DNA from: the human T2T-CHM13v2.0 reference genome, Homo sapiens
Reading direction: 5' to 3' (one strand)
Length of the DNA stretch: 64,000 nt
NCBI RefSeq assembly: GCF_009914755.1
Contig: NC_060939.1
Under the pieces are notes generated by a model, which saw only the letters and a list, made by a program, of their open reading frames with translations, ran no database searches and had not been told where the DNA came from. Made by a program: the position numbers and the translations under genes. Below, in pieces: positions 44,472 to 45,769 of the stretch; the stretch's first letter is position 1, and each line of letters starts with the position of its first letter.

Positions 44472-44569
44472 GCTCTCTCTCACCTGCTGTCATCTAAGAC
44501 ATGGCCTTGCTTCCCTTTCACCTTCTGCCATGACTAAATTTCCTGAGGCCTCCCCAGCTATGTGGAACT
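44472..44569 (+). mobile_element. THE1 (THE1C/D-like) MaLR LTR fragment forming the 5' exon of the retrocopy
   Basis: ctctctctcacctgctgtcatctaagacatgg...cttctgccatga...tttcctgaggcctccccagctatgtggaact matches THE1 sequence downstream of the TATA region. It ends where the consensus continues GTGAGTC (splice donor) and lies inside the TSD. Confidence 0.85.
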
Positions 44570-44625
44570 ACAACAAGAGAGATGTCACAGTTTTCCATTT
44601 AGATCAACAACTTCAAGTTCTTAAC

Positions 44626-45769
44626 ATGGAAAATTCAGAGAAGACTGAAGTGGTTCTCTTTGCTTGCAGTTCCTTTAAACCTATCACCGACATGCACCTC
44701 AGATTGTTTGAGCTGGCAAAGTCTACATCAATGGAACAGGAAGATACAGAGTTGTCAAACTCATAATCTCTCCTGTTGGCAATGCATATTAGAAGAAAAG
44801 ACTCATTTCTGGGGCCAGGCGTGGTGCCTCACACCTGTAATCCCAGCATTTTGGGAGGCTGAAGCAGGCAGATCACGAGGTCAAGAGATTAAGACCATCC
44901 TGGCTAACACAGTGAAACCCCGTCTCTACTGAAAATACAAAAACTTAGCCGGGCATGTTGGCGGGTGCCTGTAGTCCCAGCTACTTGGGAGGCTGAGGCA
45001 GGAAAATGACATGAACCCGGGAGGCGGAGCTTGCAGTGAGCCAAGATTGCACCACTGCACTCCATCCAGCCTGGGTGACAGAGCAAGACTCTGTCTCAAA
45101 AAAAAAGAAAAAAGAAGGAGAAAAGACTCATTCCTGCTCATCACTGGGTCATCATGGCAGAACTTGCCACCAAGAATTCCAAATGGGTGGGAGTTAATAC
45201 CCGGAAAGTCTTCAGAAGGACTGGACAGAGATTGTTAAGACACCATCAAGAGAAAGTGGAGGCCAGTAACTGTGATCACTAGCAGAACTCATCTACACTA
45301 GCAAGGCCTGGACGGAAGAAGAAGTGGACTGAACAAAGACAAGAGTCTAGTCAAAAGAAATCCCTAGAGCCCAAAACGAAAGGTGTGCCAAAGGTCAAGC
45401 TGCTATGTGGGGCAGATTTATTGGAGTCCTTCGTGGAAGAGTGAAGATATCGCCTAAATCGTGGCAGGCTATGGGCGCATATGTATTAGTTAGGCTGGAA
45501 ATGATGCGCAGAAATTCATCTATGAATCTGATGTGCTGTGGAAACACCAGAGCAACATTCATGTTGTGAAGGAATGGATTACTAATGACATCTCATCCAC
45601 AAAAATCTGGAGAGCCCTCAGAAGGGGCCAGAGCATTTGCTACTTGGTACCAGATCTTGTCCAAGAATACATGGAAAAGCATAATTTGTACAGTTCCAAG
45701 AATGAAGACAGGAATGTTGCAGTCATCCTGGCCCCTTTGCAGAGAAATGTCACAGAAGCTAAGGCATAG
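44626..45769 (+). pseudogene. NMNAT1P: Disabled NMNAT1-like CDS within the retrocopy
   Basis: Frameshift just after ELAK (~44721). In-frame TAG before the Alu (~44790). AluY insertion at 44813-45118. Small deletions near 45230 and 45432 relative to recalled NMNAT1. NLS-like PGRKKKW and [14 protein letters not shown] are still recognisable. Confidence 0.93.
44813..45118 (+). mobile_element. AluY inserted in the pseudogene CDS
   Basis: AluY diagnostics. TSD agaaaagactcatt(t/c)ctg at 44794-44811 and 45119-45136. Confidence 0.95.

What the first reader, a model, noticed from the sequence alone, without database searches (positions are those of the whole stretch)
44530..44721. LTR-supplied ATG is in frame: a 22-aa N-terminal extension through the 5'UTR segment used as the WldS linker
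Seen: the ATG at 44560, inside the LTR exon, is 66 nt upstream of and in frame with the NMNAT1 ATG, with no stop: [29 protein letters not shown] second ATG at 44530 is also in frame in this copy. Recalled knowledge: the axon-protective mouse WldS protein is the Ube4b N-terminus plus an 18-aa linker translated from the Nmnat1 5'UTR (recalled as DNIAVRGLHVGQHHQLLP) plus Nmnat1. The peptide here resembles that linker in the same frame. Inference: the LTR-driven isoform could have encoded an N-terminally extended NMNAT1, architecturally like WldS but without the Ube4b part, possibly with altered localisation or stability. It also suggests the exon-2 UTR has stayed open in frame across mammals.
Basis: partly seen in the sequence, partly recalled or inferred. 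Interest (0 to 1): 0.78.

Follow-up and report, generated by a model that had tools for sequence, protein, structure and literature searches.

The report
In-frame LTR start codon in NMNAT1P5
A dead, ancient copy of the NMNAT1 messenger RNA preserves a first exon borrowed from a retroelement LTR whose ATG happens to read in frame into NMNAT1, but nothing found here shows that such a lengthened enzyme was ever made or selected.

Summary
ATG 44560 lies 66 nt upstream of, and in frame with, the NMNAT1-type ATG at 44626, with no stop between them. ATG 44530 is also in frame.

The ATG belongs to a 98-nt LTR-derived exon (44472-44569). That exon is part of the retrocopy: a 16-nt target-site duplication flanks LTR exon plus cDNA. 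LTR homology ends at the family's GT donor, and NMNAT1 homology starts at the exon-2 acceptor.

The frame match follows from arithmetic. The ATG sits 10 nt before the donor, and the exon-2 leader is 56 nt and open. About 7% is expected by chance.

Points against a function:
- No such LTR lies within 210 kb upstream of parent exon 2.
- A strong out-of-frame ATG precedes both in-frame ATGs.
- ATG 44530 is in frame only through a rare 2-nt shortening.
- The leader is open in 2 of 3 frames, is read in other frames in 3 of 22 named records that read into the leader, and is far less conserved than the coding part.

The WldS link is positional and supported.

Aside: exon Y of the human parent gene now has an in-frame ATG, which predicts a 39-residue extension.

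The parts
44456..44471 (+). Left target-site duplication (AAAAACCATCAAATTG), inside an older repeat that I take, from memory only, to be an L1 3' end
   Evidence: 15 of 16 bases identical to 48598-48613. It lies directly outside the first LTR-homologous base.
44472..44569 (+). 98-nt first exon derived from a MaLR-type LTR (THE1/MST kind; the name is recalled, not tested). It runs from the presumed LTR transcription start to the LTR splice donor.
   Evidence: 34 of 40 scored matches are dispersed LTR copies covering about query 31-44 to 123-132, that is 44470-44483 to 44562-44571; 39 non-self copies at 83-88%; homology to 4 copies stops at GGAACT, and the copies continue with GTGAGT.
44501..44533 (+). 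First ATG of the exon (strong context taagacATGg). It is out of frame and opens a 10-codon uORF ending at TGA, which overlaps ATG 44530.
44530..44532 (+). Second ATG, in frame in this copy only because the copy is 2 nt shorter here than the 4 LTR copies compared
   Evidence: only 11 other copies genome-wide have this spacing.
44560..44562 (+). LTR ATG 10 nt before the donor. It is typical of the family and in frame with NMNAT1.
44570..44625 (+). 56-nt exon-2 leader of NMNAT1 (2 nt plus 18 codons), the positional counterpart of the WldS linker
   Evidence: papers
44626..44798 (+). NMNAT1 start codon, the rest of exon 2 and the beginning of exon 3. Frameshifted after ...ELAK, with a stop at 44764-44766.
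44799..45124 (+). Alu inserted into the exon-3 part. It is absent from the related record P0001.
   Evidence: the hub's repeat mask 44807-45128
45125..48577 (+). Rest of the retrocopy: exons 3-5 and the 3'UTR. It carries a shared frameshift (..[18 protein letters not shown]..), a TAG after ..CDH, later Alus, and about 1.2 kb with no counterpart in the parent. AATAAA is at 48554-48559.
48598..48613 (+). Right target-site duplication (AAAAATCATCAAATTG), preceded by an A-rich remnant

Best explanation
NMNAT1P5 is a dead, L1-type processed copy (44472 to about 48597) of an alternative NMNAT1 mRNA. That mRNA began in a MaLR-type LTR, ran 98 nt to the LTR's own GT donor, and was spliced directly to NMNAT1 exon 2. 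The LTR family carries an ATG 10 nt before that donor, so 1 nt of a codon is left over at the exon end. The exon-2 leader is 56 nt (2 nt plus 18 codons) and has no stop in that frame. Any such splice therefore puts the LTR ATG in frame and predicts NMNAT1 with 22 extra N-terminal residues: 4 from the LTR junction and 18 from the leader, the same segment that the WldS fusion translates as its linker. I read the frame match as a by-product of these two lengths, not as a selected coding feature. Shown: the anatomy, the splice junctions, the frame, the age and the positional identity with the WldS linker. Inferred: that the LTR sat in cis upstream of NMNAT1 in an anthropoid ancestor (it was later lost, or lies more than 210 kb away), that the mRNA was made in the germ line, and that little or no extended protein was produced.
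For: Frame and peptide. One insert bounded by a 15-of-16 duplication. LTR homology ends at the donor, and NMNAT1 homology starts at the acceptor (...TTTGTAG|ACAACAAG in the parent). Motif (ATG plus donor): 452 exact and 14129 copies with up to 3 mismatches, with a reversed control of 0. ATG at -10 in 4 of 4 copies. Introns removed, parent exons 2-5 colinear at 84-90% identity. Age: 11.0% mismatches over 1102 columns, and a tamarin record (P0038) shares the copy's frameshift. For an incidental origin: the parent leader is open in 2 of 3 frames, and 6332 of 20000 shuffles are open. A strong out-of-frame ATG lies first in the exon. Leader identity to human is far below that of the coding part, e.g. 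5 of 18 against 34 of 39 in P0052 and 8 of 18 against 34 of 39 in P0025. The Microcebus, Pteropus and Hipposideros models read the leader's 5' part in other frames. Two of 5 sister retrocopies gained stops in the frame, and the -1 frame has a stop in 1 of 5. NMNAT1 is absent from the held supplements of two oocyte/embryo transcript studies and one study of N-terminal-extension peptides.
Against: No LTR of this family lies on either strand in C1:9305001-9525000, so the cis origin is not shown in the present human genome. The last 10 leader codons (..HLDQQLQVL..) are well kept in many eutherians, at 8-10 of 10 in 9 of the 25 records compared. Gene models of turtle, platypus and lungfish also read into this segment. 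In the Myodes model P0022 the residue at the usual start is A, and the model starts inside the leader. These points leave room for some coding or regulatory constraint. A related unnamed record (P0001) keeps a 132-codon ORF that starts at the LTR ATG.
Confidence: 0.72

Rival explanations
1. One reading: the LTR-driven mRNA encoded a functional, N-terminally extended NMNAT1 with altered localisation or stability, and the exon-2 leader is kept open for such isoforms.
For: The ATG is in frame with purine at -3. The leader is open in the parent and in 3 of 5 sister retrocopies. Of the 120 listed protein clusters, 36 carry residues upstream of the usual Met, 22 of them named species. The Myodes model lacks the usual Met. 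The WldS literature shows that an N-terminal fusion through this linker leaves an active enzyme. Parent exon Y now supplies an in-frame ATG.
Against: The clusters listed are biased towards open frames and are computer models. The reading frame differs in 3 named species. The leader is much less conserved than the coding part. Upstream ATGs compete. No source LTR lies within 210 kb. No primate record with the extension appears among the best 120 hits, apart from pseudogene-type ORFs and the frame-shifted Microcebus model. There is no literature or supplement support.
Confidence: 0.1
2. The LTR exon never belonged to the NMNAT1 locus. The chimera arose by trans-splicing of an LTR transcript from elsewhere onto NMNAT1 exon 2, or by another RNA-level joining, and was then retrocopied.
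For: No LTR of the family lies in 210 kb upstream of exon 2 on either strand. The best genomic matches to the exon (83-88%) are scattered, and none is near NMNAT1.
Against: Both junction sides are exact canonical splice sites. That fits ordinary cis-splicing and makes reverse-transcriptase template switching unlikely. The family's density is about one same-strand copy per 450 kb, so a source more than 210 kb away, or one since deleted, is not far-fetched. LTR-initiated units spanning tens of kb are described in oocytes.
Confidence: 0.12
3. The 98 nt are an LTR fragment that already lay at the chr15 site, and the retrocopy is merely 5'-truncated at the exon-2 boundary.
For: RefSeq's curated pseudogene starts at 44570 (hub annotation).
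Against: The 16-nt duplication lies outside the LTR piece, not between it and the cDNA. The piece ends exactly at the LTR donor, and the cDNA starts exactly at the exon-2 acceptor. P0001 keeps the same MWNY-NKRD junction.
Confidence: 0.02

Closest known systems
LTR-initiated chimeric gene transcripts of oocytes and early embryos (MaLR families; Brind'Amour et al. 2018, PMC6102241, passages read)
   Same: A MaLR LTR supplies the promoter, a short first exon and a canonical donor, and splices into a downstream genic exon. The paper reports THE1-initiated transcripts in human oocytes, 639 human genes with an LTR-initiated isoform, and a consensus splice donor in a subset of MaLR LTRs.
   Different: Here the transcript is known only as a retrocopy at least 40 million years old. 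No such LTR is present within 210 kb of the gene today, and NMNAT1 is not in that paper's held supplements.
WldS fusion protein (Ube4b N70 + 18-residue linker + Nmnat1; passages in PMC2147001, PMC11282687, PMC2654131)
   Same: The same exon-2 leader is translated in the same frame in front of full-length NMNAT1. P0052 residues 10-27 (DNIAVRGLHVGQHHQLLP) sit where the window has [19 protein letters not shown].
   Different: There is no Ube4b part, and so no N16/VCP-binding sequence, which one search's paper shows is required in mice. The human and rodent-like leaders share only 5 of 18 residues. The true Wld18 sequence was not seen in any paper I could read.
Processed pseudogenes as fossils of past transcript isoforms (Shemesh et al. 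2006; only its title was seen, in the reference list of PMC5470649; content recalled)
   Same: A retrocopy records an alternative first exon. The five NMNAT1 retrocopies record three different 5' structures: LTR exon, exon Y and exon X.
   Different: The recorded first exon is LTR-derived, and its source is missing from the parent locus.
Predicted N-terminally extended NMNAT1 isoforms of other mammals (e.g. P0004 hare, P0007 rabbit, P0002 tiger, P0009 ground squirrel)
   Same: An upstream exon supplies an ATG, and the exon-2 leader is read through in the NMNAT1 frame.
   Different: They are computer models with different, non-homologous N-termini, and none starts in this LTR.

Membership tests
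L1-type processed pseudogene (retrocopy) | Introns removed, exons colinear with the parent mRNA | tested here: met
   parent exons 2, 3, 4 and 5 are contiguous in the window, apart from later Alu insertions.
L1-type processed pseudogene (retrocopy) | Target-site duplication at both ends | tested here: met
   44456-44471 against 48598-48613, 15 of 16 identical.
L1-type processed pseudogene (retrocopy) | Poly(A) tail after a polyadenylation signal | tested here: inconclusive
   AATAAA at 48554-48559, and parent homology ends 18 nt later. It is followed by 20 nt that are only partly A-rich, then an A run that merges with the duplication.
LTR-initiated chimeric transcript (MaLR LTR as alternative promoter and first exon) | The first exon ends at the LTR's own GT donor and joins an annotated acceptor | tested here: met
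LTR-initiated chimeric transcript (MaLR LTR as alternative promoter and first exon) | The 5' end lies at the LTR's transcription start, downstream of its TATA-like box | tested here: inconclusive
   in L009 a cataag motif starts about 26 nt before the aligned 5' end. L007 and L010 are cut by Alus, and L008 is diverged there. No TSS data.
LTR-initiated chimeric transcript (MaLR LTR as alternative promoter and first exon) | The LTR lies in cis, same strand, upstream of the gene | tested here: not met
   none in C1:9305001-9515079 of this human genome. Other primates were not available.
LTR-initiated chimeric transcript (MaLR LTR as alternative promoter and first exon) | The transcript is observed in germ line or embryo | not testable with these tools
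   The only check was indirect: NMNAT1 is absent from the held supplements of PMC6102241 and PMC10616205. Files may be incomplete.
WldS-like NMNAT1 fusion | The linker is translated from the Nmnat1 exon-2 leader in the NMNAT1 frame | tested here: met
   papers; P0052
WldS-like NMNAT1 fusion | The N-terminal Ube4b part with its VCP-binding N16 | tested here: not met
   the N-terminus is MWNY (or [14 protein letters not shown]), from the LTR.
Conserved N-terminally extended proteoform | Upstream in-frame ATG with no stop | tested here: met
Conserved N-terminally extended proteoform | Coding-type conservation of the extension | tested here: not met
   other frames are used in 3 of the 22 named records; leader identity is far below that of the coding part; 2 of 3 frames are open. 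A DNA-level dN/dS test was not possible.
Conserved N-terminally extended proteoform | Peptide or ribosome evidence | not testable with these tools
   NMNAT1 is not in the one held supplement of PMC11317171.

The most novel reading that the evidence does not exclude
The 56-nt exon-2 leader of NMNAT1 may be a latent coding linker: any upstream exon that ends one base into a codon and carries an ATG yields an N-terminally extended, probably active NMNAT1. That has happened at least three times: an ancient LTR exon (fossilised here), the Ube4b exon in the WldS mouse, and, today, exon Y of the human parent gene. Exon Y's ATG (gttgaaATGG) became in frame through a derived 2-nt gain and predicts a 39-residue extension ([39 protein letters not shown]) in front of MENSEK. 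If exon-Y transcripts are translated from that ATG, humans would make a natural NMNAT1 proteoform carrying the WldS-linker homologue, possibly with changed localisation.
Probability: 0.12. Interest if true: 0.6.

Novelty: new member of a known kind. Interest (0 to 1): 0.33.

Why it matters
As found, this is a clean example of a retrocopy preserving an LTR-initiated isoform of an essential NAD-synthesis gene whose source LTR can no longer be found at the locus. That is useful for dating past LTR promoter use, but it is ordinary in kind. It would matter more if the leader really is translated. NMNAT1's location decides whether it can protect axons, as WldS shows, and NMNAT1 5'UTR variants are considered in retinal disease. 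An extended proteoform, especially from the present-day exon Y, would change how such variants and isoforms are read.

Tried and rejected
1. Search for the source LTR. BLAST (word 7, E<=0.01) used the 97-98-nt exon and two full LTR copies against C1:9305001-9525000. The only hits were a 15-mer with no flanking homology and a 74% antisense older LTR-like piece at 9306704-9307125. Whole-genome searches gave no copy near NMNAT1. The mismatch-tolerant pattern list is sorted by mismatches, so it could not be read by position.
3. Test that the two flanks of the insert are contiguous in another copy of the host repeat: nothing usable in the held sequence or in the genome search. The host repeat's identity as an L1 3' end therefore rests on recall.
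4. True Wld18 sequence: not printed in the passages read. Conforti 2000 and Shemesh 2006 are not held. Mack 2001 was not looked up.
5. Literature on an LTR-driven or extended NMNAT1: searches NMNAT1+THE1 (1 unrelated paper), NMNAT1+LTR (10 papers, none relevant by title or abstract), and NMNAT1/uORF/N-terminal extension found nothing.
6. Supplements of PMC6102241, PMC10616205 and PMC11317171 contain no NMNAT1. Only files held as text were searched.
8. The reading that the LTR piece pre-existed at the site was rejected on the position of the duplication.
9. No structure or complex prediction was run, because none would bear on the question.

Full report
**1. Observation**

The window reads ATG at 44560, 66 nt upstream of the NMNAT1-type ATG at 44626, with no stop between them. 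The peptide is [22 protein letters not shown] followed by MENSEK. ATG 44530 is also in frame. The ORF from 44530 ends after 78 codons at TAA 44764-44766, because the copy is frameshifted after ...ELAK.

It has the strongest context (taagacATGg) and is out of frame. It opens a 10-codon uORF ending at a TGA that overlaps ATG 44530.

**2. What the DNA is**

A genome search with 44440-44800 scored 40 of 1703 candidates:
- 1 was the window itself.
- 5 matched from query 131-134 onward. These are the parent NMNAT1 exon 2 at G000:C1:9515080-9515254 (90%) and four other retrocopies.
- 34 were dispersed repeats matching only from about query 31-44 to about 123-132, that is roughly 44470 to 44571.

The break therefore falls at 44569|44570.

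In the parent, exon 2 begins ...TTTGTAG|ACAACAAGG. In four LTR copies aligned to the window, homology stops at GGAACT and the copies continue GTGAG(T), a consensus donor. The 34-nt motif spanning the ATG and the donor occurs 452 times exactly, and 14129 times with up to 3 mismatches. The reversed control gives 0.

Directly outside the LTR piece lies AAAAACCATCAAATTG (44456-44471). The same 16-mer, with one difference, follows the A-rich end of the cDNA at 48598-48613. LTR exon and cDNA therefore entered as one insert.

Parent exons 2, 3, 4 and 5 follow one another without introns, at 84-90% identity. Parent homology ends 18 nt after AATAAA.

In copy L009, a TATA-like cataag begins about 26 nt before the position where the insert starts. 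This fits an LTR-initiated, full-length mRNA, but only one of the four copies is informative there.

RefSeq's NMNAT1P5 (44570-45385) is thus a subset of a retrocopy spanning 44472 to about 48597.

**3. Why the ATG is in frame**

The family ATG lies 10 nt before the donor in 4 of 4 copies. In L007 it is followed by TAG. The leader is 56 nt in the parent and in all five retrocopies. Ten plus 56 is 66, so the frame is a fixed consequence of the two lengths.

Openness is weak evidence:
- The parent leader is open in 2 of 3 frames.
- 6332 of 20000 shuffles of the leader are open.
- 4212 of 20000 shuffles of the window's 63 nt are open.

ATG 44530 differs. In the 4 copies the corresponding ATG is 42 nt from the donor and out of frame; there it would read into exon 2's closed frame. 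In the window it is 40 nt away. Only 11 other copies in the genome have the shorter spacing within 3 mismatches, and none is near NMNAT1.

**4. The source LTR is missing**

BLAST used the exon and two full LTR copies against C1:9305001-9525000. This covers 210 kb upstream of exon 2, including the gene's 5' exons at 9485759-9487853. It found no LTR of this family on either strand. A 15-mer hit has no flanking homology. A 74% antisense LTR-like piece lies at 9306704-9307125.

The motif density is about one same-strand copy per 450 kb. A source more than 210 kb away, or one since deleted, is therefore plausible, but the cis origin is not shown.

**5. Age and relatives**

Mismatch to the parent is 11.0% over 1102 columns of exon 5 and the 3'UTR.

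An unnamed record, P0001 (132 aa), begins [28 protein letters not shown]. It matches the window at 44560-44721 (90.7%) and at 45115-45279 (94.5%). It shares the window's frameshifted ..[32 protein letters not shown] and lacks the Alu. It is a less decayed copy of the same retrocopy, and equally truncated.

The named tamarin record P0038 shares the [10 protein letters not shown] frameshift. This places the insertion before the split of New and Old World monkeys.

Only this one of the five human retrocopies has the LTR exon. Three carry exon Y and one carries exon X.

**6. Is the leader coding?**

A search was run with the parent's 57 exon-2 codons, taking longer proteins. It gave 481 hits among 487 candidates, and the best 120 were listed.
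- 117 of the 120 contain the LLACGSFNP-type anchor.
- 36 have residues upstream of the usual Met: 22 from named species and 14 unnamed, one of which is the window's own ORF, P0024.

Many eutherian models keep ..FHLDQQLQ(V/I)L(T/S). These models exist only where the frame happens to be open, and several points count against a coding role:
- Microcebus P0026 reads RQGRCPRFPFRST, which is the human -1 frame.
- Pteropus P0015 reads TTREVS and Hipposideros P0020 reads TAREGS, which correspond to the human -2 frame.
- Several unnamed ORFs simply read through the intron's pyrimidine tract (..FSFSF..).
- Identity to human is far lower in the leader than in the adjacent 39 coding residues. Examples: P0052, 5 of 18 against 34 of 39; P0025, 8 of 18 against 34 of 39; P0010, 11 of 18 against 37 of 39.
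- Two of 5 retrocopies acquired stops in the frame.

One point in favour: in the Myodes model P0022, the residue at the usual start is A, and the model starts inside the leader.

**7. The WldS link**

Passages state that the WldS linker is 18 residues normally within the Nmnat1 5'UTR (PMC2147001 figure legend; PMC11282687). The N-terminal 16 residues of Ube4b and enzyme activity are both needed in mice (PMC2654131). No passage I saw prints the linker sequence.

The unnamed record P0052 is 89% identical to the named Apodemus NMNAT1. It carries DNIAVRGLHVGQHHQLLP directly before MDSSKK.

BLASTP aligns the window's [17 protein letters not shown] with P0052's LHVGQHHQLLP-MDSSKK in one ungapped block (16 of 28 identical). 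Positional homology is therefore supported. Sequence similarity within the linker is low.

**8. Aside: exon Y of the parent gene**

Exon Y (C1:9487724-9487853) has AG and GT boundaries and is joined to exon 2 in three retrocopies. It has an ATG (gttgaaATGG) 61 nt before its donor, in frame with NMNAT1, with no stop. This predicts a 39-residue extension.

The three retrocopies have 59 nt and a TAA there. The parent gained 2 nt and a T>C change.

The junction frame of canonical exon 1 is closed by a TGA 3 codons upstream. That of exon X is closed by a TGA 21 codons upstream, with no ATG between.

No primate protein with such an extension appears among the best hits. I could not check annotation, polymorphism or expression.

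**9. Verdict**

The exon is a spliced LTR exon, the frame is real, and the leader is the WldS-linker segment.

The functional inference is weakly supported. It rests on a roughly 7% coincidence, on an mRNA known only as a fossil, and on a leader that does not behave like conserved coding sequence.

The kind is known: a retrocopy of an LTR-initiated isoform. Searches for NMNAT1 with THE1, LTR, uORF or N-terminal extension found no prior description of this case.

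Noticed in passing
G000:C1:9487724-9487853 (locus L015, about 2724-2853): Exon Y of the parent NMNAT1 5'UTR carries an ATG in good context, 61 nt before its donor. It is in frame with NMNAT1 through the open leader and predicts a 39-residue extension. Three old retrocopies have 59 nt and a TAA instead, so the in-frame state is derived in the parent lineage.
   Followed up: partly
window 45900-47999 (outside the Alus at about 46690-46815 and 47215-47864): About 1.2 kb inside the 3'UTR part of the retrocopy has no match in the parent's exon 5 and 3'UTR (C1:9525001-9531000). 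Either it was inserted later, or the parent has since lost it. Unexplained.
   Followed up: partly
P0022 (named Myodes glareolus isoform X1; cluster of 79 member sequences): The residue at the usual NMNAT1 start is A (..LVTADTSEK). The model starts at an ATG inside the leader-homologous segment. If real, this rodent would need an upstream or a downstream start.
   Followed up: no
P0001 (unnamed) and P0038 (named Saguinus oedipus): Copies of this same retrocopy in other records are called or annotated as proteins of 132 and 124 residues. Both carry the shared frameshift, so they are pseudogene ORFs.
   Followed up: partly
window 44570-45385 against 44472-48597: The curated NMNAT1P5 annotation covers only the exon 2-4 part. 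It omits the LTR exon, exon 5 and the whole 3'UTR.
   Followed up: yes
L002, L003, L004, L005 (G000:C3:192983011, C14:75244682, C4:148773411, C1:163688718): The four other NMNAT1 retrocopies record two further 5' structures (exon Y|exon 2 in three, exon X|exon 2 in one). None shows the canonical exon 1 joined directly to exon 2, though L004 has an exon-1-like piece upstream of exon Y.
   Followed up: partly
P0092 (Dermochelys), P0048 (Ornithorhynchus), P0114 (Protopterus): Gene models of a turtle, the platypus and a lungfish also read 12 or more residues upstream of the usual start, with faint likeness to the mammalian leader (e.g. VLHLDLWLQ). This hints that the sequence just upstream of the ATG is old.
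   Followed up: no
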